A stretch of 63,778 nucleotides of DNA, filler included, from Craspedostauros australis (lineage: Eukaryota), in the NCBI GenBank assembly GCA_030167865.1. It is 8 parts of 8 records of this genome, joined end to end, with 100 filler letters (N's around TTAATTAATTAA, not from the genome) between each part and the next. Parts side by side here need not be neighbours in the genome. Positions count along the whole stretch, not along the records: positions 1 to 25,008 come from JALAGF010001915.1; 7 more parts are not named here. One strand, written 5' to 3'. The first letter of the stretch is position 1, and each line of letters opens with the position of its first letter. The notes under the pieces are model-generated. The model saw only the letters and a program-made list of their open reading frames with translations, made no database searches and was not told where the DNA came from. The translations under genes were made by a program, and so were the position numbers. Below, one piece after another: positions 5,391 through 59,942 of this stretch.

Positions 5391-8300
5391 TCAACCAGAC
5401 TCATCGGTCAGGACAGAAACGTTGTCCGCACTGTCGCTGTCTGCTCCTCGAGACGATTGGGCGATACGGCTTTTATCGCCATTCGCAGTCAATGCGATGC
5501 TCCCCACGCCACCGTACTCATGCGTGCCCCCAATCGCACTCAGTTGGCCCATCTCGCCGAGTACGTGCAAAGGCTCCTTAACGCTCTCCTTGCCAACAAG
5601 ATCAAACGTGAACACATTCTGAGCTTGTTGGTGCCCAGAGGTCGCGTGGTTGCGGTTGTTGTTGCCGTTCTTCGCGTCTCCATTAGTGGCCATGGACGAT
5701 TCCAAGTACGCCGATCGTCTCTCCGTGATATCCTGCACCTTGATGACACAACCCCATCTTCTGTAGAAGTCGACAGAGCGGGTCATGTAGCCGCGGATGC
5801 TCTCCTTCATACGACGGCGAATTGACACGGTGTCATCCCCCCGTTTGCTCTTACTCCCATTCGTGCTCGTGAGGGTGTTGAGTATCCTGATGAAGTATTC
5901 ACCTGCGAACTCGCATGCCATTGCTGCATATTGCATCATCTCGGACTTTTCGGCGACGAGGATCGCTGTGTCGTAAGCCTTTTGGGCTCGGGAGATCCCG
6001 GCGGGGTCGAACTTGGGGGTCTTGAGAGATATGCGCTCTGCGTTGAGCAGCAGGAAGAGGCTTGCCACGTTCTGTCCTTTCTTCGATAGGATCTCCTTGA
6101 GAGTCTTGGTGTGCATCTTGACTTCTGCCTTGTACTTGCGCTTGTTCGTCTTGCGGAACATTCCGGCCGCAACAAGCCCAGATGGCAGGATCCTGAATGC
6201 CATGCAGCCGATGGACCTGAAATGGTCGGCGCGCACTTGGAGAGATGCTTGCATGCACCGGCTTGCGATGTCGTATCTCTGGAACATCAGCGCAAGTATC
6301 GCGTGGCATTCGCACTTTCGCTTTGCTGCAAACGTCTCCATCGAATCCAGGGCGCCCTTCTCGACGATCTGATGTGACATGCGATCGATGCTGTCCCAGT
6401 TGATCTGCCGGTCTCCTGTCATGTATTCCACCACCACCAGACCCTCGGCGGGGATCCCCCGCATGGCGACGATGTTGTATGCTGCATATTGCCGGATAGT
6501 ACTACGAAGGCTACTCATCACATCATGGAGATTCCGCCCGCCGCAATACATGACATCATCATGCGCCGATCGACTCATCAGACCGTTCTCGAATTCCCCT
6601 TCCTCCATCGCAATGGCGTATCCCTTATTCGCAAGTTGCAGCGTCTTTTCCAACGGTCTGTTGAAGGCGAAGGCATAATGGATGCTCACGGTATGGACTA
6701 TCCCACTCGCTCGTTTCCCTCCAGTCTTGTTGAATATGAGCATCGAGATGTCGAGGCATCGCAGAATAGACGGATGGTCTCCCATTGCCGTGTTGAAGAA
6801 CATGGCCAGGCCTCCGAATCCTATGGCTGATTCCTCGCACAAACCATACCGCATAGTCATGCGAACCAATCTGCAAGTTTGGACAAGCCAGAGCAAGTTC
6901 TGTCCCGTGAGGTGTGATCGCACTCCGATGTCCTTGATGAGTTGCATTGCCATGATCTTCTGGAAGTCATCCTGTAATGGCATGTTGAGGATCTGCTCAT
7001 TCGTCGTCTTCTTCAAGAATGTCTTGATGACACGAAGGTCGTTCATGATGTGGAAGAGGTACATCCTCTCTGGGAACTCCCCCAGCATCCGAACCACCGA
7101 CAAGCTCAGCTCAAGCGATTCGGTGCTCTTGTTCTGTCGTCCCAATGCACGAGCCATCGACAAATATGTCGGCAGTTTGTCATCGACGCAGTTAGCCTTC
7201 GCGATCAGTGTGTTGCCGACGTCGTATCCAACATCAAAGTTCGCCAGCGAAAGCTCCACCTCAGATCGGCATCGGAAGAGTCGTACGCAGATGCCATAGT
7301 GCTCATCCCACGCATTCCGGACCATCCGCAAGCTGGCTGCCGCCTTCTGAAGATAGGTAGCGGCAGGTGCCAGCGCAGCCACATTGAGTGCTCTCTCGCC
7401 AGCATCCAGGTTGATCTTGACGAGGTGCATGTGATCCTTGCTCGCCACGCTGTTGAGATGGTCGACAGCAACGAAGAGAAGGCCATCGCTGATCTGCGCT
7501 TGCTGGCGCGGTCGATCTTCGCCATCGCTTGTGTCACCGTTGGGATGGTCTACAAGATCAAGGTTGGATTCGTGGTGCATGTCCAAGAGGCAGTTCCCAA
7601 TGCGCAACCGGAGCTTGTCTCGAGCCTCGCCATACGGGATCAGCCCATGCGCTGCCTGTTGGATGCGATCGTGAGCGAAATGGTACTGGCTTCCACCAAT
7701 GGAATTGATGACCAGCCGTTCCATCACAGCCCCCTCCAGGATGCTGTTCAGCTTCTCCGTTGTCCATCTCGTCGATGCTTGCGATGATGCCGAGGCAGAA
7801 GCTGGAGGTGCGGTCGTGAAGCGAGGTGCCTCCTTGTGTGTGGAGGATGTGGAAGATGCGAATGTGAATTCAGCATCCATCCCACCATCCCTGTCCACGC
7901 ATTGTAGCACAGCTTGCAGCGTGGGAAGCTCGAAACTGGAACGGATGTAGGCTGCGATGCACAGCACATGCTGAAGCTCGATCGGAAGCTCCCTCATGCG
8001 TGACATGATGGCAGCCACGATGTCATCGCTGATCGGCAGATCCTGATCATCGTCGATGAATTGGTCCAGATCCCATTCCCACCGATGATCGGCATCGCTG
8101 TACACGATGACGTCGCACCGCTTGAGCTGTTCGATTGCCTGCAGCGTGAAGTATATGTTGCCATGAGTCTTCTTGAGGATCTTCTGTGCCAGCAGCACCA
8201 GATCCCTGTCGTCCTTGGGGCGGTCGAGCAGATGGGATAGCCAAGTGGCTGAATCATCGAAGGATAAGTTGCCGATGACAACTTGCTTGAGGTATCTGGT

Positions 8301-9767
8301 GCCGCTAGGAGCAGCAACATCGGCGCCACCAGGCTGGCTGGTCAAAGGAGTGAGGAAGTGCTTGTTGAGAGGCGATTGGCTCGACAGCTCCACGGCCTGT
8401 TGGCTTTGCGTATCCATCTCCTGCCTGATGACGCCAAGGAGCATGAAGTTCTCCAGCTCTACATCGGAGATGAGTGCTGCCAGCAGCTCCAACCCGGCGG
8501 ATGATGACGACTGGAGATCATCAAGGTACAGATACACTGGCCTTTGTGGGGTCGAGATTACCTTCATGAACTTGATGAAGATGTAGCGAAGCCGATTCCA
8601 CGCGCTTGTCGCATTGGCGCTGGCCCCGTGCCCGTTGTTGTCGTGAAAATTGAGGATGGTAGAGCGACGGTTCGCGCTGGAAGTCGATGCTATCGATTGA
8701 TGGTCTCCGATTCCTCGCATGCTGCCATCGACACTGGTGTTGTTGTTGTTGCTGTTTCTGTGGAACATGGATCGATGGCCGCGCAGACTTGATTCGGGTA
8801 ATAAAGTATATGATGCCGTGTGATGGACTGAACCTGAAGCGCTGGGCAAGAGGATCGATAGGGACGGTACCAATGAGATCATCGCAGCCACGGCTGATTG
8901 AGTGTGGGCATCATCAGTCTCATCGACTACATCAACGGCGTTCGTGTCTTCAATATCGCGGTTGCCACCATATGCCATGAGGACGCATCGACGGATACGT
9001 TCCAGCTCATCGGATGGACCATCCTTGAGCTGCGATGCGAAGGCATCGAGCGCCTGGACGATGGCCGAGAATGGATCCTTGCTGCCTGTGTACTCATCGT
9101 ACTTTCCGTGCAGGACGTAGCAACAGGTGCACTGATTCAGGAGAGGTGCGGTTTCCTGTTTGTGCGCCATGGTGTTGGTGTTGTGAGCAGCGGCCGCATT
9201 TCTGCCATCATCTTGAGACAATTCCTCGACGGTTTTGGCGCCGCAGGTGCAGCAGAATAGATTCAGAAACTGCTCGACCATCTGTGACTTTCCCGTCCCG
9301 CTAGTGCCCCAGACAAGTGCGGCGGGGTAGACGGAGGGATCAAGCTCGTTTCCACGAGATCCTTCAGATATGACTCCATCACCTTCATCCGTTGCTGGAT
9401 ATGTGGATGATGTGGAGTGGCCACGGCTCACCTTGTCAGTTCGTTGAGATTCCTTGGCGGGAGATGCATTGTCAGCGTTCGCTGGTCTGGCGATAATGCG
9501 ATCGCGGATGGCGCAGAGCTCCTGAAGCTCCTTTTCTCGTCCAAAGAAGGATCGTTTGGAGAAGAGAGCTGGGACGGCCGGGTTCGAAGCTGCAGCTGCG
9601 TCCGCATGGCGTTGCTCTTTTCTCGCCTTGGACGACATCTGCCTCTTTTGGTGGGAACTGTGCATTGATTCAGATGTTACGGAGGGCAGTCCCGTGCCTC
9701 CGGTCGCTGCTTCAGAGCGGTTACAAGTGTTGAATTGCATCTCTTTGTCGATCGTTGACGTCGCCAT
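5391..9767 (-). CDS. STAND-class / AAA_16 P-loop ATPase with helical (TPR-like) C-terminal region; resembles the central part of multi-sensor signal-transduction kinases (COG3899-like)
   Basis: 1458-aa uninterrupted ORF. FFGREKELQEL upstream motif, Walker A GTSGTGKS, GKYDE, Walker B LYLDDLQ, KTHGNIYF, YHFAHDRIQQAA, and C-terminal 'AYDTAI...ACEFAG...FYRRWGC..KV' motifs. Confidence 0.85.
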   Translation of the reverse strand: MATSTIDKEMQFNTCNRSEAATGGTGLPSVTSESMHSSHQKRQMSSKARKEQRHADAAAASNPAVPALFSKRSFFGREKELQELCAIRDRIIARPANADNASPAKESQRTDKVSRGHSTSSTYPATDEGDGVISEGSRGNELDPSVYPAALVWGTSGTGKSQMVEQFLNLFCCTCGAKTVEELSQDDGRNAAAAHNTNTMAHKQETAPLLNQCTCCYVLHGKYDEYTGSKDPFSAIVQALDAFASQLKDGPSDELERIRRCVLMAYGGNRDIEDTNAVDVVDETDDAHTQSAVAAMISLVPSLSILLPSASGSVHHTASYTLLPESSLRGHRSMFHRNSNNNNTSVDGSMRGIGDHQSIASTSSANRRSTILNFHDNNGHGASANATSAWNRLRYIFIKFMKVISTPQRPVYLYLDDLQSSSSAGLELLAALISDVELENFMLLGVIRQEMDTQSQQAVELSSQSPLNKHFLTPLTSQPGGADVAAPSGTRYLKQVVIGNLSFDDSATWLSHLLDRPKDDRDLVLLAQKILKKTHGNIYFTLQAIEQLKRCDVIVYSDADHRWEWDLDQFIDDDQDLPISDDIVAAIMSRMRELPIELQHVLCIAAYIRSSFELPTLQAVLQCVDRDGGMDAEFTFASSTSSTHKEAPRFTTAPPASASASSQASTRWTTEKLNSILEGAVMERLVINSIGGSQYHFAHDRIQQAAHGLIPYGEARDKLRLRIGNCLLDMHHESNLDLVDHPNGDTSDGEDRPRQQAQISDGLLFVAVDHLNSVASKDHMHLVKINLDAGERALNVAALAPAATYLQKAAASLRMVRNAWDEHYGICVRLFRCRSEVELSLANFDVGYDVGNTLIAKANCVDDKLPTYLSMARALGRQNKSTESLELSLSVVRMLGEFPERMYLFHIMNDLRVIKTFLKKTTNEQILNMPLQDDFQKIMAMQLIKDIGVRSHLTGQNLLWLVQTCRLVRMTMRYGLCEESAIGFGGLAMFFNTAMGDHPSILRCLDISMLIFNKTGGKRASGIVHTVSIHYAFAFNRPLEKTLQLANKGYAIAMEEGEFENGLMSRSAHDDVMYCGGRNLHDVMSSLRSTIRQYAAYNIVAMRGIPAEGLVVVEYMTGDRQINWDSIDRMSHQIVEKGALDSMETFAAKRKCECHAILALMFQRYDIASRCMQASLQVRADHFRSIGCMAFRILPSGLVAAGMFRKTNKRKYKAEVKMHTKTLKEILSKKGQNVASLFLLLNAERISLKTPKFDPAGISRAQKAYDTAILVAEKSEMMQYAAMACEFAGEYFIRILNTLTSTNGSKSKRGDDTVSIRRRMKESIRGYMTRSVDFYRRWGCVIKVQDITERRSAYLESSMATNGDAKNGNNNRNHATSGHQQAQNVFTFDLVGKESVKEPLHVLGEMGQLSAIGGTHEYGGVGSIALTANGDKSRIAQSSRGADSDSADNVSVLTDESG

Positions 9768-11869
9768 GGTATGTATAATATAATACTCTATGTATAATGC
9801 CGTATGTATATAATAGATGCGAGTAGACTGTATGTGTTGTATGTGTTGTGAGTGCTTCTGCTCGTTGTGAATAGGAGAGTGCTTCAGAGAATCTGACTCG
9901 ATTGCTTTGCGTTTTGTGTCGACTGCGTTTCGTTTCGTAACTTCGTGCGCGGCACCGGGGTCGCAGTTGCCGCTACCACACCAAACTCCTTTGCAGATTC
10001 ACTTCGTTTGAACAGACCCGCATCTCTTTGACGGTGGTAGTTGCGGGGAAGGTCGTTCTTGTTCGAGCGTGCGCGCAGGTATGATAGAAGTGGTGGCATC
10101 ACACGCATTCTTGTGCTTGTGAACGCGATCTGGACCGGAAAGACGGCGATCATTCGTTGGCTACGACTGGCGAACTTGGAAAACATCAGTACCTGACTTT
10201 TCTCATCACGTTGCCACGCTTGTGCCACGCCGCGGACAGTTTGGGCCTCTTCTTGCTGGTGATCATGTTAGTCACGATCGTGGGTCATTCAGAACATCAA
10301 TCTGCGGTCCCACATGAACGGTTCCTACGAAGGCCATTGGAGCACTGTCGCGGCGATCCAAACACCTCGAAAACGCGGAAGGAGCTCGTCCCCATTCTCG
10401 GAGGAACAAGCACCAATGCCCCAATACCAATCGCTGTCCTCCCACCACAAACATTCAAACCCGCAACGATGGAATCTGGGCTGCGGTGCAAACATTGAAT
10501 GCTCTGGTGCAGCAGGCATGAAGGATGGTACAAGTGCATCGATGTACGAGTATGATATGATAAAATGCATGGCACTGTCGCATCACAACCTTGTCGTTGG
10601 TGTCTGATACGGTGAAAGATCGGACAATGCATGATAGCCGCTTTTTGTTTGGGTGTAAACCGCTTGTCCTCCATGTCGCCACTCAACAAGATGACGGAAA
10701 GGGTTGCCCAAAGATGAGCATCGGCCTTTGCCTCTCGCGCGATCAGGAATGTGGAGGGCTCCTGGTCCTATTTCATGTGATTTCTATCTTGTCCGTGCGA
10801 AGAAGCCACGAGGACCAGAATGACAGCATTCGCAGGTGGTCGTGACATGGCGACGAACCCATGAGAATTGGATGAGGAGACGAAAGACTGGGAGTGCTCA
10901 TCATGTCGCAAGCGTCATTGTGGAGAGAGAGAGAGAGAGAGGAGTACGTAGAATAGGTCGTAGAGCAGTCCCTTCCGGCGCTGCGTACCTCGTTCGCGCC
11001 ACCATCCTGGACGTGATGAGGTCTTGACAGGAGTAGATCACGTACGACACGAGCGCGGAAAGGCAGCGGAAGGATTCGGCCGACCAAGAAACCCCAGCCC
11101 GGCATCAACATCACCCAAGCGGATCGTTGGCAAATCGAAAACGGCCTCCGCCTGCCTGGAACGAGATGCGGGAAAGTGTCAAGAAGAAGAGCATGTCTAC
11201 TACTCGTGTACTCTCAAATGTATCACAATGCCATACACGGATAAATCTTCTCCCAACAACACAAAACGAACTTCCCCACCCTGGTCAACCTCCTTCCGTT
11301 TGATACACTCGAAGCCTCACAGGCAGACACGCCAAATTGTGAAACTGCAACAACGAATCTGACGCTTGGACCAAAGATGTCCGAGTAGATACATGCAATA
11401 AATATGTATTATTTTCTATTTTAACGCAGCTTTTTCTATTTGCACGTTTGAGTTGGTCGACTGGATCATGACTCGAATCGAGAAAACCACGGAAGACTAA
11501 AATTCCGAATTCCAACCGAAAACACAAACCAACGGTCAACCATGATGAACGGACAGAGAAAATCGCCACAAAACCAACACGACGCAACACGACACAGGCG
11601 ATGAGACAGCGCCTTGCGGCAGATGGCAAATGGCGAAACCCAGTCACAGCCACCCACACAAACTCCACCACAAACCTTGAGCGAAGCAAGCAACACACCA
11701 CGCTGCGATCAACAAGATTACTTCGCGCCGATCAGCGCGAGCATTGTTTGAACACGACACTCTATCCTCGCACACAATAACACTTTGTTGGGTACCACAC
11801 CATACCCTGCTTCTGGGTATACCACACTCCACTGCAGCGCAATAGCACAACAACGACCCTGCCACCACC

Positions 11870-13610
11870 ATGGCCAAACGCAGATCGAATGGTGGCTACA
11901 ACGATGGTGGCGGCATGGGCCGTCCTCCCCACGGCGATGAACGTCGTGGCAAGCGGCAACGTCGCGAGTACTCTGGTGGTGGTCGAGGCAATGGACACGA
12001 CAACCGCATGAGCTACAACAAGACCGTCTTTGTCGGAAACCTTTCCTTCGACACGACATGGTACACGCTCAAGGACCACATGCGCCAGTGCGGCAACGTC
12101 GACGTGGTGAGTCTCTCGGCACGCAATTTTGCGTTGCCAAACAACGTGATGAGGAACGGAAAAATGGCTGCGGACCATGATCAGTCGTGGCAATGTGCAC
12201 ATCTTCGAAGAACTCTGCAACGTACTCTTTGCTCATGCGTTTGCGCATCCATTCGTTCATCCATTCATTTGTCTGCTCATGCATTTACTCATATTCTACA
12301 ACATATTCCATTCCATTTTCCGATTTCAACAACAACAATGACAACGACATTTCCAGGCCAACATCTTGATCCACCCTGATGGCTCATCGAAAGGCTGCGC
12401 GTTGGTGGATTACCAAGACGCCAGAGATGCGCAGCGCGCCCTGCGCGAGCTGAATCACACAATGCTGGATGGACGCAGCATTTCCGTCATCCCTGACACC
12501 AACGATGAAGGCGCCAATGACCGTCGCATGCCAGCTTCGCACCCACCATCCGCTTCGTCGTCGTCAGCACAAACCGCGACCGTGTTTGTTGGCAACATCC
12601 CGTATGAATGCAAAGGATCGGAAGTTCGCAACATGTTCAGTAAGTTTGGCAGGATTCTCAGCGTCGAGCTACCGCAGAGACAGAATGGCAGACCCAAAGG
12701 CTTCGCGCTCGTGGAGTTCAAGCATTCTGACGATGCCTCCGACGCCATCGAACAGATGCACCGATACCAATTCCAGGGCAGACGATTGGATGTCACTCTC
12801 AGCCGGGAAAGCAGCAGCGATGGCAAGCGCGGTGGTGGTGACTTTGGCGGTGACTCTTTCCATGACCAACGCAACCACAGCGGACCTTCATCGACTCCTC
12901 CATCCCCCATCATCCTCTTCGTGGGCAACATCCCACCCAACACGCGCTGGCAGGACCTGAAGGATCACATCCGAACCACGTCCGGTCCCATCGCCGACGA
13001 CATCCAGGTCCATGAAGGAATCCGCAGGACGTACAGCACCGTCATGCTCAAGAGCGGCATCACCATGGACAACGCACAACATTGCATCGATCGCCTCAAT
13101 CGCAGTCGATTCCAAAACCAAGTGCTCGAGGTCAGGTTCGATCGCAAGGACGCGCAGAGCCACGCGGCCGCACCGCCGCCGCAACAGCAACAGCCCAAAC
13201 CGGCCACCTACAGCGATCGCAACATCTTCGTGCGCAATCTGGCGTATGGCACGTCGTGGCAGAACCTGAAGGACCACGTGCGCAAGCATTGCAGCGGCTT
13301 TGGCGTCCATTCGGCCGATATCATTGGCGATTACCGCAGCGGCAAGAGCAAGGGCGTGGGGACAGTCACATTCGACACGCACGATGAGGCGGTCAAGGCC
13401 GTGGACATTCTCGACGGCACGGACTTGGATGGTCGCGCTCTGGAAGTGCGTCTGGATCGGCCGCCACCCAACAGCGGCGACGGTGTGCCCAGCGAGAAGA
13501 GGGAGCGGCCGGCACGCAACAACAACATCAAGAAGGAGGAGAACACGGCGGAGGTCATGGAGTACAACTTGGAGGCTGCCTTGGATGGTGCGCTGTCTTC
13601 CTCCAGATGA
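11870..13610 (+). CDS. Multi-RRM RNA/ssDNA-binding protein, Gbp2/Hrb1/GBP1-like, 2 exons (11870-12106, 12357-13610)
   Basis: Four RRM-like units (VFVGNLSF..W..LKDHMR, VFVGNIPY...KGFALVEF, LFVGNIPP..WQDLKDH, IFVRNLAY..SWQNLKDH...SKGVGTV). The phase-0 GTGAGT...TTCCAG intron restores RRM1. Confidence 0.88.
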
Positions 13611-13972
13611 TGATGATGAAAATGATGGAATGAGTTAAGATACTGACACTGCTGCTCTTTGAAAGCGTGGCGCACCGCTAGATACAATTGCCCGCTCTGA
13701 ACTAACGCAAAACAAGTTAATTTGAGTCAAGCCGACATTCCATCTTTCTCTTGCAGTACCATACATGCACAAGTTGTCATTGTAGCAGAACACGAGAAGT
13801 GGAGCATTTGGATTGAATCGTCCCTACGAGAGTGAATTGAGTGTGCTTGTGGTGGTGTTCTTCCATTGGCGCCAAGCATGGTAAAGAGACAGCGATGTTT
13901 TTTTTCTCCCAATGACTCTACTCCACCTCCGATCACATCGCATCACACAGTTCACGTCATGCCATTTTCCTT

Positions 13973-15069
13973 TCATGCCGTCGCCGACGGCGTCGTGAGA
14001 TCCACATCGGCGTCTTCATCGTAAAAGTACTGCGCGGGCACGGGTATGACGTACCGACTCGGCACGCGACGATGCGGCGTGTTGCCGGTGCCGTCCTCAT
14101 CGTCTTCGAACTTGACGATGATCTCCTTGACGGCCGGCACGCCGGTGTAACGATCGAGCTTCCACAGGGGCGCCTTGCTGACCTTGGCCTTGTAGAAGGA
14201 GGTCGTCTCGGGAAAGATGGCCATGCAATCGGCCCCCTTCTCGAAGCAGGCTTCCGTACCAGTCGACAAGCGCATGACGTGCGACCACGGCAGGCGGATC
14301 AGCTTGGACGTGTCGTCCTCATCCTGCACATCGTACGTGGCCGTGTCGGAATAGAATCGCTGCACGGATGCCAGGATCCAGGAACCGTTCTCGTCCGTGC
14401 GCGTGACCTTGGCCGCGACCTGCTCCCCGGGTCGTGCCGATGTCTTGTTGCGCTTGCGTTTGCGCACGTGGACGGGGAAGAGGGCGTCGTAATGCGCCGT
14501 GGTCCGCGAGTATTCCGTCTTGGCGTTCGTGCCGCTGCCGCCGACCTCGAGGCGTTGCAGGAATCCGCCGACGCAGGCCTCCTCGTCGACCTCCATCTGT
14601 TCGAAGTGACGTGCGACCGCGACGGCCAGTTCCGATGGCGGTGCTTCCTGTCGCACGGATACGCCTGTTGATATTGTGTTGCATGCATTGTGCATGTGGA
14701 TTGCGGACGTGTGCACGAAACACATTTGGATGATCACCCGATGTGCGATGCGTGCATCAGAGGTTGGTGAGCAATGGGTGTCAGGAGATTGGGGATGACA
14801 TGATGATGGATGACTCAATGACATGATACGCATGGCATCAGCAGACCACCCAGCAGGTATATGAGCAACGCGTGGACATCGCACTCACCATGATGATCGA
14901 TGTAACTGGCCAAAGTGAGGCCAGCCAGCTTGCGGAAGTCCAACCCAACACCGCGCGGATAGGATCGCGAATGCGACGTCTTTCCCGACGATCGGCGGCG
15001 TGGATACGATGGAGCGGAGGATCCCGTTCCTCCACCGCCATTGTCGCTTCCCAGCGTTGAGGTCTGCAT
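13973..15069 (-). CDS. SGF29-like tandem Tudor protein with N-terminal SAP30 Sin3-binding-like domain, 2 exons (15069-14889, 14664-13973)
   Basis: The C-terminal half has SGF29 motifs (PGEQVAAK..WILASV..YDVQDED; AIFPETTSFYKA; KFEDDED..VPSRYVI). The phase-1 GTGAGT...AACAG intron joins LDFRKL..LTLASYIDHHG to VSVRQ..ELAVAVARHFEQMEVDEEACVGGFL. Confidence 0.85.
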
Positions 15070-19707: not shown

Positions 19708-21212
19708 TTAGGCATCCGCTTCATCTGCCGAGAGGTTCGGGGTGATGAGATGCGGGTAGAATGCGCGAGGTGGGTCAGCGGAGAATGTGACTCGGCGCTT
19801 CCTTCGCGAGTTGCAGCTATCGTCGGGAGACACCAGATGGATCAGAGGCTGTTCTTGTGGCGGCGGAGATGAGCATCTCATGCGCTTGCAGCATGGCTCT
19901 TCGACTGGGATGGAGCAGTCGGCTGGAAGTGTCTCCAAGGAGTCGAAGCTGCGCTTGGACGACAGACCAGTGCATTGCAGGTGGGACAGGACGTCGCGTG
20001 CAGATGTTCCCAACGCGTTATACCTGGTGTTGTTCTGGACGATGATGCTGGTTCTGGAGTATGCCATTGACTTGGCCGCGGTTGATGCTGGCGCATCAGT
20101 TGCAGGCACGGTATGTGGCACGGAGCTGATGCTGGCCGAGAGATCGTTGAGACGAAAGCTGAACGACTTGAGCATGAAGCACGGGGCGCCCTCGCCACCG
20201 AAGCGGATCATGCTGCCCTGCCGTATCTTGTGCGGGACGATGACGCCTCCAGCTTGTGGAGTCGAGTGGATGCGTGCGCCGTTGACGTACGTTCCATGTG
20301 CGGATCCGCAGTCGACGATGTAGCAGCTTCCGTTCGAGTGATGGAAGAGCAGGGCGTGTCTTCGCGACGACGTCGCGTGAAGCAGCTGCACGTTGTTGGA
20401 TGGTGATCGGCCAATTCGGAAAACGGCTTGTGTTGTCAGGTCGACTGGTGTTTGGACGCAGTCGCAGACAGGCTGTTGGAGTTGATGGAAACGACGATGT
20501 GGATGTTGGTTTGCGTGTTTGAAATGCGGATAGATTGGGGAAAAGCAAGAAGGGAAAAGACCGTGTCAGTTGTGGGTCAAACATGAAGGGAGGTTGATTG
20601 TGACATGCGCTTCAGTTCTTCCCATTGTTGCTGGCGCTGTGAGCAACACCGGAAGGGTGGAAACATCCTGGGCAAAGCTGGTTGTGGTTGTTGCTACAGC
20701 TCTTGCTGACGTACCTCAAGACGCGCGTCACCTCGGGCTGGGACGGCCCATGATGGTGCCTCGATGTTGGAGATCGGTCTGTGTGGCATGGTGTTGTTTG
20801 CGTTGTTGCTGCTGCTATTGTTGATGCCGTGATTGGTTTGGTTTGCGCGTTCTGTGGATGCCAGACGTTCAAGTTGTGAGCACAGCAGCTGTTGTTGTTG
20901 AACAGTCAAGAGGCTGGTGTTTGTGTTGACACTGCCATGGTTGTTGCCGATGATGGCTTTGTTGCCGTCGCTACCGTTGTTGCAGTTGCGTCTGTCAGTG
21001 TGCGTTGAAGAGTCCCACAGCTCGCTGGAGCCGTTATTTGATGGGATTGAGGGTGCGCATTGCTGAAACTGGTGTGAGAGAGGAGAGGTGTCATCGCCGG
21101 ATACAAAATGGCGAGACCTTCTCTCCTGTGCACCGCAGCTCAACTCTGCGCGGGGGATCGAACCGCAAAGTCGAACATTGACTCGAGGAAGGGAGAGCAC
21201 CGTCGTGGTCAT
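19708..21212 (-). CDS. FHA-domain protein with PP1-docking RVxF motif (NIPP1/PPP1R8-like), 2 exons (~21212-20715, 20472-19708)
   Basis: Splicing GTACGT...AACAG gives PSWAVPARGDARLE-PVC...FRIGRSP..SSRRHA..DCGSAHGTYVNG..IRFG (FHA domain), followed by KRRVTF near the C-terminus. The start codon is uncertain because the ORF stays open to 21659. Confidence 0.8.
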
Positions 21213-25430: not shown

Positions 25431-27990
25431 TTGAGTCATGATGGATTCGTGAATGGAGGAGAGAAAGGAGGAGAAAAGATTTGGTGGTCGATCAAGTCGG
25501 AGGATTTCGCGCCAAAACGAGAATTTCCCCATCTGGTTGATACCGTGTTCGGTAATAGTCTGTCCCTCATTGAATCTCAACTCTCACCAACAATCAATAG
25601 CAACAACAGTAACAGTAACAGAAACACTTACGACAAAGAGTGTGACTACTACCGATTCTCCGTGCGCGGAGCCTTCCAACAGGTCAGCAGAATGTCATCA
25701 TTGACGACAACGACAACGACAACGACAACCACAACAGCGAGCCTACGAGCATGATATCCGATGGCAAAGGGGAAGACAAGCTCTCAACTGCGGACATCTC
25801 GAGAGAATCCGATGACTATGAAGCAGTGAGGATTCCAGATCCTCCCCAGTAGCGGATTCAGGGGCGTATCGACACTCTGGCTGAGCGAGCATGATGAGAT
25901 GTTCCAAAATCAGATCACAACAGATGATACGAACGAACCAGCAATTACATCCATCGCAGGCCACTCATTCCAAGACGGACATCTCCATCTCAATGTGAAA
26001 TGGGACAACAATGAAACTCAATAGTTCCAACACGATATCCTGAGGGCAGACTATCCCGAGCTCGTGGCGCGATACATCATCACTAACGAGCCAAAACGGT
26101 GCGACAGGCACAATCGACAGTCAACAACAATACTAAAATGGGCAAAGCACGCTGTTCGCGCGATACACAGACGCCTGCGACGAATCGAGCGCACGCACAT
26201 CTTCACAGTTGACAACAACGACAGCATCGCCATCCTGAGGCGCATACGACCAGGAAAGAAGAAGCCGAACAAGGACTTCTTCGCTACAGTATTCCAATAC
26301 GGTGTAGAAGTGCCATGCAACATACGGCACGCACTCCAACTTGACGAAGCCAATGGCAACACATTGTGGAAGGGTGCAGCAAAGAAAGAGATCGATGCTC
26401 TGATTGACCTTGATTGCTTTGAATTCCATCCATCCACTCACCGACCTTCATCGTACTACCAGAGCACCAAGCTCTGGCTCATCTTCGCTGTGAAATAGGA
26501 TCTGCGGCTCAAGGGGCGGCTGGTAGCTGGTGGTCACCTCATTGAACTCGCTGACAACATCGGAGTATACTCGTCCACGATCAAATCAACCAGTGTACAG
26601 ATACTCGATATCATCGCGGACACAAACAAGCTGAAGCAACTCTGCAGCGACGTGGGGAATGCAGTTGTCAATGCCTACACCAACAAGAAGATGTATGCAA
26701 GGGCAGGAAAAGAGTTCGATCACAGAGAGGGTCAGACAATCGTACTCAGGAAGGCATTGCATGAACTCCGATCGAGCGCGCAAAGCTTCCATGCTCACCT
26801 TGCAAATACACTCTCATCCATGGGGTTCTCTCCATCACAGCATGACCAGGACGTGTGGATCAAGTGGAGGGGCGACACTGAGTATGACTACATATGCATG
26901 CATGTTGATGGCTTCAAGATTGTGGCAAAAGAACCAGACCAATACATGAAGGCCATCCAGCAAATCTACACCATCAAAGACATTGGACCACCCAAATACT
27001 ATCTGGGCAACGATGATTCCAGGAATGTGAAAGACAAATGGAGCGTTGGATGTGACAATTACATCGCAAACGTGATGGAGAACATCGAGCGGCAGCATGG
27101 AACGCTCCATGACCAGCATGTTCCCATGCGGAACAAGGATCATCTGGAAACGGATGACTCCAAACTACTCACACCAGACAAACACCAACAGTTCCAGCAG
27201 CTCATCGGCATGCTGAACTGGGCCATTCAACATGGACGTTTCAACGTCGCTTTTGCAACTTCTTTACTCTCTCAATTCACTGCATCACCATGGAAAGGAC
27301 ATCTACCAAGAGCACTCAAGATATGGAGCTATCTCAAGAGTGTGTCCACACTCAGAACACAAATCGACTCCAGACCCATGATATTCAACAACTTCAACTC
27401 GATACCGTCCAACCTAGAATTGGTGGCACAAATGAAGGAAGAATACCCTGAGACACAGGAGGACGTCAACGACCGGTCACCAAAGCCAATCTATCCAGAG
27501 CTGCCAATGTATGCATTCGTCGATGCTGACCATGCGCACGATCTTGTCACACGCCAATCAAACACCGGGATCATCCTTTTCCTCCGCAGGACGCCTGTGT
27601 GCTTTTCGAGCAAGCGGCAGACATGAGTCACAATGTCTACATCCGGAGCAGAATTCAACGCGATGCGATCAGTGACGGAAGAAATCATTGCACTCCGATA
27701 TGCACTCCGATCACTGAGAGTCCGCGTCCAATCACCGACGGTCACATTCTGCGACAACAATGTGGTGATCTCGAAAACGACGATCGCAGACAGCCTATTG
27801 CAAAAGAAGCATGTGGCAATATCATTTCACCAAGTCCGTGAGGCTGTGGGAGCTGGGACACTGGTTCCAGTCCACATCCCATCAGCTCAGAACTTTTCTG
27901 ACATGCTCACCAAGGCATTGGTGAAGGCAACACTAACACTTCTTGCCACAACCCTGTTCTAGGGGGGTCCACCTTGAGATCAAGGGGCGT
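25431..27990 (+). mobile_element. Decayed Ty1/copia (CoDi-like) LTR retrotransposon pol: RT + RNase H
   Basis: YGVEVP..HALQLDEANGNTLW..KE, K*DLRLKGRLVAGGH, LRKALHELRSS, HVDG (degenerate YVDD), YYLG, FVDADHAHD..TRQS.TG, GAEF, FCDN, KKHVAISFH.VRE, NFSDMLTK, all in one frame with in-frame stops (26496, 27624). A purine-rich tract follows the stop near 27980. Confidence 0.92.
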
Positions 27991-34785: not shown

Positions 34786-37700
34786 ATGAGTGGGTTCCTG
34801 CCAGGTTTGGCGGATTGGGCATTGCGTGGTGGGGCAGGCAACGGAGATGAGGACAATGTCGAGGGAAGCAACGATGGTGAGGATGGCGACAGCAGCAGCA
34901 ACGACAACAACAACAACCATGGAAGCCACGCTGAGGCCAGCAATGCGCCGATCCAGCCAGCGGCGACGGAGGATGAGATGAGGGCGCGACGTCTGGCTCG
35001 GATGGAGGCAATGCAGAAGAGACAGGCGGAGCATCAGCAGCAGCAACAGAATGAGAACAACAAGGAGACACCCATGGATGTGGACGCTGACGAGGCCGAT
35101 GGCAACAGAGCCGATCAAAAGCAGCCGCCAAAGGTGGATGCCACCTCTGCTGCCACCACCTCCGCTACGCCTATGGACGTATCATCCACCGACAAGGCTG
35201 CGGCTGACAGCACAAGCCCGACCCGCAAGACCAAGCAGATGACAGAGGATCAAAAGGAACCGGCCAAGAAGAAGAAGGATGCCAAGACAACGCCCAAGGA
35301 TGATGCCGCACGTAAACTCCAGCGCAAGAAGGAGCTCTTGCTCAAGCGCGTGCTGCTCCTGAGCCTGGCGGAAACGGCCACGGCGACTGACTCTGCATGC
35401 GTGACGATCGATATCGGAAGCACCAACATCTCTTCCGCGAGCGTCGCGGAGATCCTTGCGACCAGACTGTCGCTTGAGCCAACTTGCACGACTTTGCAGA
35501 CCGTTCCTGCACAGAAGAATCTCATTCCCTACCTGGGACAATCTCACCGCAGGGCCTCGGAGGAGCTCAAGACTCTGCGGCAGCAGACACAGAGCAAGCG
35601 GGAGAAGTCGGTGGAGCTGGAGCAGATCTTGTCAGAGATTCAGCGCCAGGTCGTCAGCTACGCCGCCAGTTCCTTGATGGAACCCACTCTGTTCGATCTG
35701 GGCCACGATGGGCCCACCCAGCTTGCCAAGTCGTTCATCGTCGTCGACCCGGCGGAGTCCATCATGTTTGGCGTCTCGGGACCAGGCACCTCGTTTTACG
35801 ACTGTCTGTGCGATGAGCTCATGACGCAGGATGCGGCCGCCTTTCAGAACGTCATCAACATGGTCTTGACGAACCTGATGGAGCGCATGTCCAAATGCGA
35901 AAGCGTTGACGCCGGAGTCGGCGATGCCAATCCCGTCACCCTGTTGTCGGCGTTGACATCCATCGTCTCCAACAAGAAGGCCGCGGGGTTAGTGGCGCAG
36001 TCCGCCACCTTTCTGCTGCCAGCTGCTGGAACCCCGCAAGCCAGCGAGCTCGTTCGTCCATCGCTACCGCAAGGCGTGGACCTGTTCCGAATGCTGTCGG
36101 CGGAGAATCGACCATACAAGAGACGCAGTGGGCCAGGCCTTGAAAAGAAGACCCTCTTGGGCCTCGTGCTGCGTGTCGGTGCCGCCAAGGACAACCCAGC
36201 CTTCTCTCCAAACTCCATCCTGAGACAATCTTTGGACAGCGTGGAGAGAACGACATCGTCGCAAAGGGTGCAGCTGCGCAACTACCAAGAAATGTGCAAT
36301 CGGTTCGTCATGAACCTCATCAAGGGAGGGCCTGCGGCTCGGGGAAGGGTAAGTTGATGAGACGCTGCTGTGTTTCGCGACAGATATTGCGTAGAGTGCG
36401 AGGATGTGGCTGTGCCTTGTGCTCTGCTTGTTGCATCGCAGTACATCGGCTCGTCGTTATTATTTATTGAGTGCGGCCTTCTTGACGATTGTCGGTGCAC
36501 GGTGTTGTCACATGTTGCTCTGAGTGGCAAGCACGCTTGCTTCCATCCATCCCTTTATCTAACGCTACTTCTGTCGCCGCCACCGCTACTGCTCTGTGAC
36601 TTGCTCGATGCGCCATTTCAATGCTATTTTGGCCGTGGATGCACATCATCACAACACAGGTCATGACATGGTTTACCGACTGTCTCAAGCTCAATGTTGG
36701 AGCAACGGCCTTGCGACCTGACCAGACAAAGGTTTCATCAACCGCGTTGCTTCTCAACGCGCAGACCGTGTTGCTGAAGCTGTGCGAGCCATTCGTGATC
36801 GCTGATAAGAAGCACCATTTGATCGATCCAGGCTTTGTGTCGTCTGCTGCGGCGCATGGTGGAGTGTATGCTACAGAAGGTGATGATGCTGTCCCGCGGC
36901 TGGGTGAAGCACAGCCAAGCAACGAAGAGTACAGCCCCAAGAATTCTTTCATTCCACAATGCTTCTTCTTCGCTGCTCGTTCTGTGGCATTGGGTATCGT
37001 CCCTGCACTTAGCCACCACGAAAATCTCATCCGTCATATCGGACATTCACATTGGGAAATCACATCGCAGAACAGAGATCTGCAGTCCGACCCGCATTTC
37101 CGCATGCTTGTCAGCCGACAACGGTCAGGGGAGGTGGCGCTCTTTCAACCAGAACTCGTGCAGGACAGCCTCCGCTTTTGCAACCTCGTTGCTAAGTTCA
37201 TGACCCAAATACCCGATGAAAAACTCGGTGGCATGCCGGAGCACTTTGTGGACAATGTCTGTGACATCGTCATGAGCATCGCCAAGATGAAATCCAAGCT
37301 CTTGCGTGGGGTGGAGCTCCGACACATCTTTCAGCTCGTCGTCAAGCTCCTCTCGTCCAAGTACGCGAACGTAAGTGCGATGCTTTCTGTGCGGGCAACT
37401 TTCGTATGTCACTGCTCTGTGTCATTATGCTCCGAGAGTCCGCCGGGGAGTCTCAATCCACTACATTCACATCTCTCTCACATCCACACGCACACGAACG
37501 CACACTCAACTGCCTTCTATCTATCTTATTTGTACGCTTCTATTCAAATACAAACACACAAATGCCGCCCATATCCTCACACTTGCTGCCTTGGGATCGA
37601 TGGCGCCATGTAGATGGTGCGCAATTACAACTTGCGAGCAATGCTCGGGGATGTGCTCTACGAGCTGTACCTCCCATCGAACTCTGAAGATCGCAGAGAC

Positions 37701-39084
37701 GTGCCATCCAGCGTTACGTGCGATCCATTGGCAAGTGGACAAACATTCCTGTTGTCTGACAAGTACGCTCAGGAAACGCTGGCTCCGTCGTTGCTGTTGC
37801 TATACGGAGAAGTCGAACACACTGGATACTATGACAAGATGAGCCATCGGGCGAAGATCTCATCCTTGTTGAAGTACCTGTGGGAAAGCTCCGAACATCG
37901 GCCTGCATTCCGTTCCATCACCCAAAACAAAACCTCCTTCATCAAGTTCGCCAACGGCATCATGAACGAGACCAACACATTGATCGCGACAGTGATGCAG
38001 AAGTTGCCCGAAATCAGAGAAGCTCAGGAGAAGATGGCGAACCCGCAGGAATGGGGACAGCTCTCCGAGGATGAGCAGAATGTCATTTCCAGCCGTCTGG
38101 AGGACAATGAACGCGAGGTCAAGCACGCTCTTCCATTGTGCAACAAGACGCTGCAAATGTTTGGCTACCTGAACACTGACGAGGACATCCGGAGTCTGTT
38201 CCTCTTGGAAGAGCTCTGTCCTCGGTTGGTGACGATGCTCCTCCATGTTCTCACGAAGCTCGTCGGTTCGAAGGGGCTCGATCTGAAGGTACGTTCTGTC
38301 TGTGCTGCGTCACGCAACGAGTACGCAGCTTTGCTCCATCATGTCGCGGCACAAAATGCTGCGGCTGCGGCTACTCTTGATCAAACCGTGTGGTATCTTA
38401 CAGTGCCCCGAGACCAGATTTGGAGATGTGGCCTTTTGCAAAATTGCTTGCTCACATTCGCCTTGCCACCAATCGTCTTCGTGAAAATGCTTCCCTTCCT
38501 CATCTGCAATTCCAACTGCAACTGCGACTGCAACTGAAAATACAATGCGGCAACGACTGTATCATTGTGATGACAACTCCGTACAGGTGAACAACCCGGA
38601 GCAGTACCACTTCCGGCCAAAGGAAATGCTTCGCGATCTATGCGCGATCTTCGCGTTGTTTGCATCCACGAAGGAATTCTCGATGGAATGCGCGAAGAGC
38701 GGATGCGATCCCACCTTGCTCCGCACTGCAGTCAAAACATGCCGACGCCTGAACTTGCTGACAGGCGAATCGATGACAGCCTTCGAATCGCTGCCCACCT
38801 TCGTCGAGGACGCGTCGCGCATAGTGGCCGAAGATGAGAAGCTTCTGTCCGATGCTCCGGACGAGTTCCTCGACGAGCTGCTCTCCACCTACATGAATGA
38901 TCCGGTGATCCTGCCAAGTGGGCACATCGTCGATCGATCCACCATCACCCAGCACCTGCTCAACGATCCAATCGACCCGTTCAATCGTGCCGAGATGACT
39001 ATCGATGACGTGAAACCAGCCACGGAGCTCAAGGCAAAGATGGTCACATGGTTGGAGGAGAAGCGTGTCGCAAACAAGAAGTGA
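34786..39084 (+). CDS. UFD2: Ubiquitin conjugation factor E4 (UFD2/UBE4, U-box), 4 exons (34786-36348, 36660-37370, 37614-38288, 38587-39084)
   Basis: EMRARRLAR N-terminus; Ufd2 core motifs (LKLCEPF, MPEHFVDN, VRNYNLRA, VEHTGYYDK, FIKFANGIMNE, GSKGLDLKV-NNPEQYHFRPK); U-box APDEFLDELLSTYMNDPVILPSG..VDRSTITQHLLND..DPFNR. Introns are canonical GT-AG. Confidence 0.95.
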
Positions 39085-59170: not shown

Positions 59171-59942
59171 CTCATTTTTAGGCACAATTTCGGATCTCAG
59201 ATGACAAATGCAAAGAAGCAAAAATATCCATTTTTCCATTCAAGAACAATTTCTCAGCAATAATCCTCCATTATCGAGTCCCGTAATGAGTAGTTGACAG
59301 AGAAAAACTCATGAAATGGACAATTTGTTGGGTGTCCCTGATGTTTGCTTTGGGACACTTGTTCTTCCTTGCCGTGATTGAATTCTTGGCGCTGTGACCG
59401 GGAAGCGGGTGCGGCTTTTGACGCCTTTCGGGTCGCTTTTCCTCTTTGTGTGGATGAAGACGATTGGCGGGGCGAGTGTCTCTCAATAGGCCAAGTAAAT
59501 GGGATCATGTTGCCGCTTGGACGGACCCAGAATTGGGATTCCCGTGTCATGACACTGCTGCACATTCCAGCTTCCGACATTGACCCAAGAGAGCGAAGTC
59601 ATCAAGTCCAAACGCTGACTATGCGCAAGAGCTTTCCGCCTCCCTTCACGCACAACGAAGACCACAGCGCCACCACGCCCAAACCGACATCAAGAATGAC
59701 ATCAAGACTGCCAGCAACGCCACAGCAAAGGCCATGTACGCACCTGACTCGTACATGTACTAATACACGGTCGGCGAGACCAACCACCAATCTCAGCGAA
59801 AGCGAAAGCGCCAAGCGCATGTCCTGATCACAATCTCAGGCGCTGCCACAACCGCAATCACAATTACGCCCACGATTACGCCCACCAGCCCACCAACGAG
59901 CACACTTACCAACACAAACGCAGACACGTTGAGACTCTCATC

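What the first reader, a model, noticed from the sequence alone, without database searches (positions are those of the whole stretch)
13973..15069. Apparent fusion of a SAP30 Sin3-binding domain to the SGF29 H3K4me-reading tandem Tudor
Seen: after splicing the 14888-14665 intron, the N-half reads LDFRKL..LTLASYIDHHGVSVRQ..ELAVAVARHFEQMEVDEEACVGGFL, followed by a basic linker (RKRKRNK) and a complete SGF29-type double Tudor. Known: in animals and yeast SGF29 is a SAGA/ATAC acetyltransferase subunit attached through an N-terminal coiled coil, whereas the SAP30 C-terminal domain (xDxxxLxxxTLxxYxxHF...ELxxxVxxHF...VxExxxIxxF) binds the Sin3 deacetylase complex. Inference: this protein could bring Sin3/HDAC rather than a HAT to H3K4me3 promoters, a rewired chromatin module. 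The intron splits the domain, so it is invisible in the ORF track.
Basis: partly seen in the sequence, partly recalled or inferred. Interest (0 to 1): 0.78.

Follow-up and report, generated by a model that had tools for sequence, protein, structure and literature searches.

The report
SAP30-SGF29 Tudor fusion gene in diatom
A two-exon diatom gene joins the part of SAP30 that docks onto the Sin3 histone-deacetylase complex to the SGF29 double Tudor that reads methylated histone H3K4; the fusion is real and conserved across diatoms and other ochrophyte algae, but its function is untested.

Summary
On the minus strand, exon 1 (15069..14889), a GT..AG intron (14888..14665) and exon 2 (14664..13973) give a 290-aa protein with no internal stop. 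Exon 2 alone passes Pfam's cut-offs for SGF29_Tudor (98.4 bits) and for the C-terminal two thirds of SAP30_Sin3_bdg (26.4 bits). Transcript-derived diatom orthologues read straight across the predicted junction and match the whole SAP30 domain.

The fusion is not peculiar to this genome. 88 of the 120 best relatives carry both domains. Named carriers include diatoms, eustigmatophytes, xanthophytes, brown algae, a dictyochophyte and Chrysoparadoxa. Tribonema minus and Chrysoparadoxa also keep a separate canonical SGF29, so the fusion is an extra paralogue there.

The H3K4me3 cage residues are conserved, and the N-terminal domain matches human SAP30 bound to Sin3A PAH3 (2LD7, E 2.5e-6). The best reading is an H3K4me2/3 reader built into a Sin3/HDAC docking subunit. 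This is the same logic as ING2/Pho23 in Sin3L/Rpd3L, with a different reader.

Binding to Sin3 and to H3K4me could not be tested. JGI product names already list both domains, but I found no paper on the fusion. Verdict: a new variant of a known kind, of moderate interest.

The parts
14889..15069 (-). Exon 1: start codon at 15069, 60 codons plus the first base of codon 61. It holds a low-complexity N-terminus and then the start of the SAP30-type domain (YPRGVGLDFRKLAGLTLASYIDHH).
   Evidence: It aligns to the N-termini of full-length orthologues in A1.
14665..14888 (-). Intron, 224 nt, GT..AG, phase 1, lying inside the SAP30-type domain.
   Evidence: GTGAGTGC...ATCAACAG; GC 0.50 against 0.63 in the exons; the unspliced frame stops at residue 85. 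Transcript-derived orthologues P0015 and P0026 are continuous here. Database models P0009 and P0158 carry an in-frame insertion at exactly this point, as expected of an unremoved intron (inference).
13973..14664 (-). Exon 2, including the TGA stop at 13975..13973. It holds the rest of the SAP30-type domain, the linker and the tandem Tudor.
14552..14961 (-). SAP30-type Sin3-interaction domain (spliced residues about 37-98), interrupted by the intron. The model predicts an N-terminal extension followed by three helices.
   Evidence: Pfam PF13867: 26.4 bits on exon 2 alone and 31-40 bits on 7 of 7 full-length orthologues. A profile of the domain hits human SAP30 SID 2ld7_A at E 2.5e-6. In the AF2 model of the 80%-identical P0006, residues 31-100 have block pLDDT 82-93, with helices at 46-56, 66-79 and 84-97. 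Four of the five best Foldseek matches of the domain-only model are SAP30 entries by title.
14444..14464 (-). Basic stretch RKRKRNK in the linker, a likely nuclear localisation signal (inference).
   Evidence: A basic run is conserved at this position in the orthologues.
14036..14428 (-). SGF29-type tandem Tudor (spliced residues 140-270). Cage residues are F211, Y218, F246 and D248. D175 and D177 align to the human H3A1-pocket aspartates.
   Evidence: Pfam PF07039 at 98.4 bits. phmmer against human SGF29 3me9_A gives E 1.7e-11 with a residue alignment. Foldseek against 3me9_B gives E 5.6e-10. Cage identities come from passages of PMC4589357.

Best explanation
This is an intact two-exon nuclear gene of a pennate diatom. 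It encodes a 290-aa chromatin adaptor that belongs to an ochrophyte-wide paralogue family of SGF29. The C-terminal tandem Tudor is the SGF29 type. The N-terminal helical region that ties SGF29 to the HAT module is replaced by the SAP30 Sin3-interaction domain, without the SAP30 zinc finger.

Shown here: the gene model, both domain identities, conservation of the fusion across ochrophytes, conservation of the methyl-lysine cage, and coexistence with canonical SGF29 in two named species.

Inferred: the three-helix N-terminal domain docks on the PAH3 domain of Sin3, as SAP30 does; the Tudor binds the H3 N-terminus carrying K4me2/3; and the protein therefore places or holds a Sin3/Rpd3-type deacetylase on H3K4-methylated 5' nucleosomes to trim acetylation there. 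This is the job done by ING1b/ING2 (Pho23) PHD fingers in animal and yeast Sin3L/Rpd3L, here hard-wired into a SAP30-like docking subunit.
For: Gene model. Continuity across the junction in transcript-derived orthologues.

Domains: Pfam hits above the curated cut-offs in the window and in 7 of 7 full-length orthologues. A profile of the N-terminal domain alone (A3, 9 fragments) hits human SAP30 SID in complex with Sin3A PAH3 (2ld7_A) at E 2.5e-6 over 66 residues, followed by yeast Sap30 chains at E 0.05-0.12. The domain-only AF2 model has SAP30 entries, by their titles, as 4 of its 5 best Foldseek matches (9a07_A 6.8e-3, 2ld7_A 9e-3, 8hpo_I 0.21, 8ga8_J 1.2). The Tudor part is closest to human SGF29 bound to H3K4me3 (3me9_B, E 5.6e-10).

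Cage: human Y238/Y245/F264/D266 align to F/Y/F/D. The Y238F variant of human SGF29 binds H3K4me2/3 like wild type (PMC4589357 passages). Across 36 fusion proteins down to 29% identity, D166, D168 and D237 are invariant and F202, Y209 and F235 nearly invariant. In the N-terminal domain L49, Y52, H76 and F77 are invariant (P0006 numbering).

Spread: 88 of the 120 listed relatives carry both Pfam domains (my count). 48 of 83 representatives of at least 200 aa carry both by Pfam (my count), and 57 of 83 by a family-specific profile that hits 0 of 23 canonical SGF29s. Named carriers are pennate diatoms, Nannochloropsis, Tribonema, Pylaiella, Scytosiphon, Rhizochromulina and Chrysoparadoxa.

Paralogy: canonical ochrophyte SGF29s form one clade with 99% SH-aLRT support, with all fusion Tudors outside it. 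Both kinds occur in Tribonema minus and Chrysoparadoxa.

Context from papers: SAP30 occupies Sin3A PAH3 constitutively at about 10 nM (PMC6295471 passages). At least three Sap30 helices engage PAH3 in yeast Rpd3L, whose Pho23 PHD binds H3K4me3 (PMC10224958 passages).

Supporting hint: 6 of the 48 fusion representatives, plus 2 Tudor-only ones, also show a C-terminal Forkhead match. A DNA-binding domain next to a Sin3-interaction domain is the classic repressor layout (only P0148 passes the Pfam cut-off).
Against: No binding was tested.

The SAP30 matches are short (about 50-66 residues) and modest in score. The structural matches of the domain-only model are weak (best E 6.8e-3, no match at E <= 0.001), and that model has mean pLDDT 68.

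The structure models are of orthologues (P0006, 80% identical over exon 2; P0172), not of the window protein itself.

The SAP30 zinc finger is absent, so the protein is not a canonical SAP30.

No named diatom canonical SGF29 turned up in two word-limited searches (24 and 29 hits). In diatoms this protein might therefore be the only SGF29-type reader and could still serve a HAT complex.

No RNA read of this organism spans the intron.
Confidence: 0.6

Rival explanations
1. The protein is the diatom's working SGF29 for a SAGA/ATAC-like acetyltransferase module. The N-terminal helices only resemble SAP30 and bind ADA3 or another HAT-module subunit.
For: No canonical SGF29 from a named diatom was found (24 and 29 hits, all named ones from non-diatom ochrophytes). 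The Tudor is a bona fide SGF29 type. Short helical docking domains can change partners.
Against: The N-terminal domain passes the curated SAP30_Sin3_bdg cut-off in the window and in divergent relatives, and it hits the solved SAP30 SID at E 2.5e-6. Canonical ochrophyte SGF29s have a different N-terminus that matches Pfam ING (PF12998). They form a separate clade, and none of 23 matches the fusion's N-terminal profile. The two searches that missed diatom SGF29 are word-limited and capped, so they are no evidence of absence.
Confidence: 0.12
2. The SAP30-like domain has been redeployed. Either it binds a partner other than Sin3 PAH3, or the protein competes with a canonical SAP30 for PAH3 as a regulator without recruiting deacetylase activity to H3K4me.
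For: The zinc finger and other SAP30 parts are missing. Sequence similarity to animal and yeast SAP30 is modest. No partner was tested.
Against: The hydrophobic signature shared with human and yeast SAP30 (D..L..L..Y..H, EL..V..HF, V.E....F) is retained and invariant or nearly so across the family. That conservation is as strong as in the Tudor, which argues for a conserved, ancient partner. In the solved complexes this region is the one that wraps PAH3 (PMC6295471, PMC10224958).
Confidence: 0.22
3. The fusion is a gene-model artefact: two neighbouring genes or a pseudogene joined by an imagined intron.
For: No RNA evidence from this organism spans the intron.
Against: Exon 2 is one open frame that already contains two thirds of the SAP30 domain plus the whole Tudor. 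The splice sites are canonical and restore the frame. Assembled transcripts of relatives (MMETSP P0015, P0026, P0140, P0152) encode the joined protein. The architecture is conserved in at least 57 clusters at 50% identity.
Confidence: 0.02

Closest known systems
SGF29 (SAGA/ATAC-associated factor 29; human SGF29/CCDC101, yeast Sgf29)
   Same: C-terminal tandem Tudor of the same Pfam family (PF07039, full-length match). Best sequence and structure matches are to human SGF29 (3lx7, 3me9). The H3K4me2/3 cage is conserved as F/Y/F/D, and the two aspartates that align to D194/D196 are conserved.
   Different: It lacks the N-terminal helical region that canonical SGF29s carry, which in ochrophyte canonical SGF29s matches Pfam ING, PF12998. 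It carries a SAP30 Sin3-interaction domain instead. Its Tudor lies outside the canonical ochrophyte SGF29 clade.
SAP30 / SAP30L / yeast Sap30 (core subunit of Sin3L/Rpd3L)
   Same: The C-terminal Sin3-interaction domain (PF13867), with three predicted helices preceded by a conserved extension. It aligns over 66 residues to the SAP30 SID solved with Sin3A PAH3 (2LD7).
   Different: There is no zf-SAP30 zinc finger. The domain sits at the N-terminus and is followed by a histone-reader module. Binding to Sin3 is not shown.
ING1b/ING2 and yeast Pho23 (H3K4me3-reading subunits of Sin3L/Rpd3L)
   Same: The proposed function is the same: a flexibly tethered H3K4me3 reader that brings or holds a Sin3/HDAC complex at methylated promoters (PMC6295471, PMC10224958).
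   Different: The attachment also differs: a SAP30-type PAH3 dock in the same polypeptide, not a coiled coil with Rxt2/SAP130. This is an analogue, not a homologue.

Membership tests
SGF29 tandem Tudor (Pfam PF07039) | Full-length match to the family model above the curated cut-off | tested here: met
   98.4 bits against a cut-off of 23.8, profile 2-132 of 132, on the window's exon 2.
SGF29 tandem Tudor (Pfam PF07039) | Tandem Tudor fold like solved SGF29 | tested here: met
   In the AF2 model of P0006 (80% identical to exon 2) most of the Tudor has block pLDDT 86-96 (one block 78). The best Foldseek matches are 3me9_B, 3met_B and 3mev_B (E about 6e-10 to 1e-9, TM 0.61-0.63 on the target). The test was made on an orthologue, not on the window protein.
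SGF29 tandem Tudor (Pfam PF07039) | Methyl-lysine cage Y238/Y245/F264/D266 (human numbering) | tested here: met
   The alignment gives F/Y/F/D, which are window spliced residues F211, Y218, F246 and D248. Cage identities, and the finding that Y238F binds like wild type, come from PMC4589357 passages. These residues are invariant or nearly so in 36 fusion proteins.
SGF29 tandem Tudor (Pfam PF07039) | Acidic pocket for H3 Ala1 (D194, D196 in human; residue roles recalled, not found in a paper read here) | tested here: met
   One search aligns D/D, and both are invariant in A4.
SGF29 as SAGA/ATAC subunit | N-terminal helical or coiled-coil region that anchors SGF29 in the HAT module | tested here: not met
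   No such region was found. The N-terminus is low-complexity followed by the SAP30 SID. Canonical ochrophyte SGF29s carry an ING-like N-terminus (PF12998) that the fusion lacks, and 0 of 23 canonical proteins match the fusion's N-terminal profile.
SGF29 as SAGA/ATAC subunit | Binding of H3K4me2/3 peptides | not testable with these tools
   Needs ITC or a peptide array.
SAP30 family | Sin3-interaction domain (PF13867) above the curated cut-off | tested here: met
   26.4 bits against 22.2 on exon 2 alone (profile 17-51); 31.4-40.5 bits on 7 of 7 full-length orthologues (profile 4/5-50/51).
SAP30 family | Similarity to the solved SAP30 SID that wraps Sin3 PAH3 | tested here: met
   profile A3 against 2ld7_A gives E 2.5e-6 (30.9 bits, 66 residues) and yeast Sap30 chains give E 0.05-0.12; 4 of the 5 best Foldseek matches of the domain model are SAP30 entries by title, but with weak E-values (6.8e-3 to 1.2).
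SAP30 family | N-terminal SAP30 zinc finger | tested here: not met
   No zinc-finger family was reported at E up to 10 on exon 1 or at E up to 1 on 7 full-length orthologues.
SAP30 family | Binding to Sin3 PAH3 and presence in a Sin3/HDAC complex | not testable with these tools
No complex model was made.
ING/Pho23 readers of Sin3L | C-terminal PHD finger and ING N-terminal domain | tested here: not met
   The fusion shows no PHD or ING match. The likeness is functional only.

The most novel reading that the evidence does not exclude
In ochrophyte algae the SAP30 docking module of the Sin3 deacetylase core has captured the SGF29 H3K4me2/3 reader, so that reading the 'active promoter' mark is built into the HDAC core and not delegated to an ING/Pho23 PHD subunit. 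In brown algae and Chrysoparadoxa the same polypeptide also gained a Forkhead DNA-binding domain, giving a one-chain repressor made of a DNA binder, a histone reader and a corepressor dock. An Atlas cluster, mostly Ascomycota, in which 12% of members carry the SAP30 domain next to the SGF29 Tudor (an untested lead) hints that the fusion may be much older than the ochrophytes.
Probability: 0.3. Interest if true: 0.65.

Novelty: new variant of a known kind. Interest (0 to 1): 0.5.

Why it matters
SGF29 is the textbook link between H3K4me3 and histone acetylation by SAGA/ATAC. A conserved paralogue that carries the same reader on a Sin3/HDAC docking domain would link the same mark to deacetylation. 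Ochrophytes include diatoms, kelps and Nannochloropsis, which matter ecologically and industrially, and their chromatin machinery is little studied.

The prediction is a concrete, cheap experiment: tag the protein, do IP-MS, and run peptide binding. It would also be a natural example of reader swapping between opposing enzyme complexes. On the practical side, orthologue gene models in public sets are often wrong at this intron (P0005, P0009, P0020, P0158), so the architecture is under-counted.

Tried and rejected
The window's own genome is not held, so I could not search the same genome for a canonical SGF29, SAP30, ING or Sin3.

RNA evidence: no RNA holder is listed. The single run found (X1, kind guessed) gave one 506-letter contig on 13807..14307 only, which does not reach the intron.

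Complex prediction with Sin3 PAH3 was not run, because no Sin3 sequence could be obtained from the window (Pfam scan of 28 further long ORFs) or from any search result.

Canonical SGF29 in diatoms: searches with Chrysoparadoxa P0238 and with a 20-sequence alignment returned 24 and 29 hits, none from a named diatom. These searches are word-limited and candidate-capped, so the question stays open.

The whole-protein profile (A1) against PDB gave only E 0.6-1.1 for SAP30 chains. A domain-only profile was needed.

Foldseek of the full-length model returned only Tudor proteins, so a domain-only model was folded.

The paper on the SAP30-PAH3 structure (Xie et al. 2011) is not held. Interface residues could therefore not be checked one by one.

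Earlier findings of this scan held nothing relevant.

Literature: 0 papers hold sap30 + sgf29 + diatom and 0 hold sap30 + sgf29 + tudor. Eleven hold sap30 + sgf29, of which 10 were listed, none about a fusion by title. Seven hold a Pfam name or accession of either domain, none about this architecture by title. Searches for diatom chromatin inventories listed no paper, by title or abstract start, on a diatom SGF29, SAP30 or Sin3. Subscription journals and supplements were not searched.
Full report
**What is in the sequence.** Read on the minus strand, an ATG at 15069 opens a frame that runs for 181 nt to 14889. It is followed by GTGAGTGC, and 224 nt later the sequence ...ATCAACAG ends at 14665. 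Joining 14889 to 14664 keeps the frame: the split codon gives Gly. The joined CDS is 873 nt and encodes 290 aa with no internal stop, ending at the TGA at 13975..13973. Left unspliced, the frame stops at residue 85, and the intron is less GC-rich than the exons (0.50 against 0.63).

**Domain identities.** Exon 2 alone (P0002, 229 aa) matches SGF29_Tudor over the whole model (E 4.3e-28, 98.4 bits, cut-off 23.8). It also matches positions 17-51 of the 53-position SAP30_Sin3_bdg model (E 8.7e-6, 26.4 bits, cut-off 22.2). Exon 1 alone gives nothing, which is expected because it should hold only about 16 model positions. The SAP30 domain is therefore split by the intron but is not entirely hidden from an ORF-based scan.

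I did not hand the joined protein to the external tools. I used orthologues instead. All 7 full-length orthologues tested, including two assembled MMETSP transcripts (P0015, P0026), match SAP30_Sin3_bdg over positions 4/5-50/51 at 31-40 bits, and match SGF29_Tudor as well. In alignment A1 the window's exon 1 and exon 2 abut on these proteins with exactly one residue (Gly) between them. In a script, the spliced product aligns in one stretch (residues 26-286, 350 bits) to a profile of 36 fusion proteins. Two database models (P0009, P0158) carry an in-frame insertion exactly at this point, as an unremoved intron would give. P0005 and P0020 have foreign N-termini. The intron position therefore appears conserved and is often mis-modelled; this last point is inference.

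**Is the N-terminal domain really SAP30-like?** A profile built from nine fragments that contain essentially only this domain (A3) hits the human SAP30 SID solved in complex with Sin3A PAH3 (2ld7_A) at E 2.5e-6 over 66 residues. Yeast Sap30 chains from Rpd3L structures follow at E 0.05-0.12. The shared positions form the hydrophobic signature D..L..L..Y..H / EL..V..HF / V.E....F.

An AlphaFold2 model of P0006 (80% identical to exon 2, alignment of 36 sequences) gives block pLDDT 82-93 for residues 31-100, with three helices at 46-56, 66-79 and 84-97. A domain-only model (P0172, mean pLDDT 68) has SAP30 entries, by their titles, as four of its five best Foldseek matches in the PDB: 9a07_A at 6.8e-3, 2ld7_A at 9e-3, 8hpo_I at 0.21 and 8ga8_J at 1.2. 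These E-values are weak and none reaches 0.001. No zinc-finger family is reported in exon 1 or in the orthologues.

Passages of PMC6295471 say that SAP30 occupies Sin3A PAH3 constitutively through a tripartite SID, with about 10 nM affinity. Passages of PMC10224958 say that at least three Sap30 helices engage PAH3 of Sin3-I in yeast Rpd3L. The paper on the 2LD7 structure is not held, so individual contact residues were not checked.

**Is the Tudor a competent H3K4me reader?** P0006 aligns to human SGF29 (3lx7, 3me9 and related entries) at E about 1e-11. The Tudor part of the model is closest to SGF29-H3K4me3 complexes (3me9_B, E 5.6e-10). PMC4589357 (passages) defines the cage as Y238, Y245, F264 and D266, and reports that Y238F binds H3K4me3 and H3K4me2 like wild type. 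In the alignment these positions are F, Y, F and D, corresponding to window spliced residues F211, Y218, F246 and D248.

The two aspartates that I recall as the H3 Ala1 pocket (D194, D196; not confirmed in a paper read here) align to D175 and D177. Across 36 fusion proteins down to 29% identity, D166, D168 and D237 are invariant and F202, Y209 and F235 nearly invariant. L49, Y52, H76 and F77 of the SAP30-like domain are invariant too (P0006 numbering). Both halves are under comparable constraint.

**How widespread is it?** The first search found 437 relatives. Of the 120 listed (all E <= 3e-93), 88 carry both Pfam domains by my count. The named ones are pennate diatoms: Seminavis, Entomoneis, Cylindrotheca, Nitzschia, Epithemia, Mayamaea and Pseudo-nitzschia. 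Four JGI entries are already named 'SGF29 tudor-like domain/Sin3 binding region of histone deacetylase complex subunit SAP30'.

An exhaustive HMMER search of 1.84 billion cluster representatives found 554 hits at E <= 0.001. I scanned only the 83 of the 150 listed that are at least 200 aa long. Of these, 48 of 83 carry both domains by Pfam at E <= 0.001 (my count). With a family-specific profile, 57 of 83 carry both, and that profile hits 0 of 23 canonical SGF29s.

Named members are Nannochloropsis gaditana and N. salina, Tribonema minus and T. gayanum, Pylaiella littoralis, Scytosiphon promiscuus, Rhizochromulina marina and Chrysoparadoxa australica. The ESM Atlas holds a 203-member cluster with PF07039 on 100% and PF13867 on 85% of members, commonest in Bacillariophyta.

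**Relation to canonical SGF29.** Other representatives have a Tudor preceded by a helical N-terminus that matches Pfam ING (PF12998): P0238, P0240, P0245, P0261, P0268 and P0271. Named ones come from Chrysoparadoxa, Tribonema, Vaucheria, Discosporangium, Chrysophaeum and a pelagophyte.

Tribonema minus has both kinds (KAG5176280.1 is the fusion, KAG5190445.1 the canonical form), and so does Chrysoparadoxa. In a quick maximum-likelihood tree of 80 Tudor domains (136 columns), the 23 canonical proteins plus P0256 form one clade with 99% SH-aLRT support. All fusion Tudors lie outside it, and the rest of the backbone is unresolved. The tree is unrooted, so the order of events is not shown.

No canonical SGF29 from a named diatom appeared. 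Those searches are word-limited and returned only 24 and 29 hits, so this question is open.

**Most likely mechanism.** The steps shown here are the gene model, the two domains, their joint conservation, the intact cage, and paralogy with canonical SGF29 in at least two species. The remaining steps are inferred. The N-terminal three-helix domain docks on Sin3 PAH3 as SAP30 does. The basic linker (RKRKRNK, 14464..14444) serves nuclear import. The Tudor binds the H3 tail with K4me2/3. Together they would place or retain a Sin3/Rpd3-type HDAC on H3K4-methylated nucleosomes.

This logic is already known for Sin3L/Rpd3L, where the PHD fingers of ING1/2 and Pho23 read methylated H3K4.

A further hint comes from Forkhead matches. 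Six of the 48 fusion representatives (among them Chrysoparadoxa P0170 and Pylaiella P0220) and two Tudor-only ones (among them Ectocarpus P0200) also show a C-terminal Forkhead match. Only P0148 exceeds the curated cut-off. A DNA-binding domain next to a Sin3-interaction domain is the usual layout of a Sin3-recruiting repressor, a comparison that rests on established knowledge of Mad/Mxd-type repressors and was not tested here. I put 0.6 on the Sin3/H3K4me reading.

**Rivals.**
- A HAT-module SGF29 with a look-alike N-terminus: 0.12.
- A redeployed or decoy SAP30-like domain: 0.22.
- A gene-model artefact: 0.02.

**Novelty.** The domain combination is visible in automated annotation (JGI names; Pfam shares in the Atlas). 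In the library I could search, no paper holds sap30 + sgf29 + diatom or sap30 + sgf29 + tudor. The 10 listed of 11 papers with both names are unrelated by title, and none of the 7 papers that cite the Pfam names or accessions concerns the fusion by title. Subscription journals and supplements were not covered.

I rate it a new variant of a known kind: a known principle (an H3K4me3-reading HDAC complex) carried out with a reader borrowed from the opposing HAT complex.

**What stays open.**
- Sin3 binding and H3K4me binding.
- Transcripts of this organism across the junction. The one run found covers only 13807..14307.
- Whether diatoms keep canonical SGF29 and SAP30.
- Whether the fusion reaches beyond the ochrophytes. 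An Atlas cluster, commonest in Ascomycota, with PF13867 on 12% of members is an untested lead.

Noticed in passing
Related proteins P0137, P0146, P0148, P0149, P0170, P0220 (both domains) and P0200, P0219 (Tudor only): These carry a C-terminal Forkhead match after the SGF29 Tudor. Named ones are Chrysoparadoxa australica, Pylaiella littoralis and Ectocarpus sp. Only P0148 (29.3 bits) passes the Pfam cut-off of 27, and P0220 scores 26.8. This would be a DNA binder, a histone reader and a corepressor dock in one chain.
   Followed up: partly
Related proteins P0238, P0240, P0245, P0261, P0268, P0271 and most hits: The N-terminal helical region of canonical ochrophyte SGF29s matches the Pfam model of the ING N-terminal domain (PF12998). 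Five of the six score 34-55 bits against a cut-off of 23.9; P0271 scores 22.1, just below it. This suggests a shared helical docking module between SGF29 and ING readers.
   Followed up: no
Related protein P0254 (1108 aa, unnamed source): It combines 2OG-FeII_Oxy_2, SAD/SRA and an SGF29-type tandem Tudor in one protein. P0255 combines a SAP domain with the Tudor. The SGF29 Tudor seems to be a mobile reader module in protists.
   Followed up: no
ESM Atlas cluster seen: A 167-member cluster named 'SGF29 tudor-like domain-containing protein', commonest in Ascomycota, carries PF13867 (the SAP30 Sin3-binding domain) on 12% of members. This is a lead that the same fusion may exist in fungi with a divergent docking domain.
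   Followed up: no
Related proteins P0005, P0009, P0020, P0158: Public gene models of orthologues are wrong at the conserved intron. Two read through it in frame (P0009, P0158) and two start from a foreign N-terminus (P0005, P0020), so database counts of the two-domain architecture are underestimates.
   Followed up: partly
window 12342..13610 (+): A 422-aa open frame with four RRM_1 stretches (E 4.1e-54) converges tail-to-tail on the fusion gene. Only 362 nt separate the two stop codons.
   Followed up: no
window 36600..37613 and 37614..38537 (+): Two adjacent open frames each match a consecutive part of Ufd2P_core (profile 68-336 and 338-555). This is one ubiquitin E4 gene interrupted by a stop, a frameshift or a very short intron at about 37613.
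   Followed up: no
window 26499..27626 (+); 5391..9998 (-); 59748..60854 (+); 19708..20565 (-): A copia-type reverse transcriptase fragment (RVT_2, E 5e-12), two large open frames with AAA_16 ATPase domains (1535 aa and 368 aa), and an FHA-domain frame.
   Followed up: no
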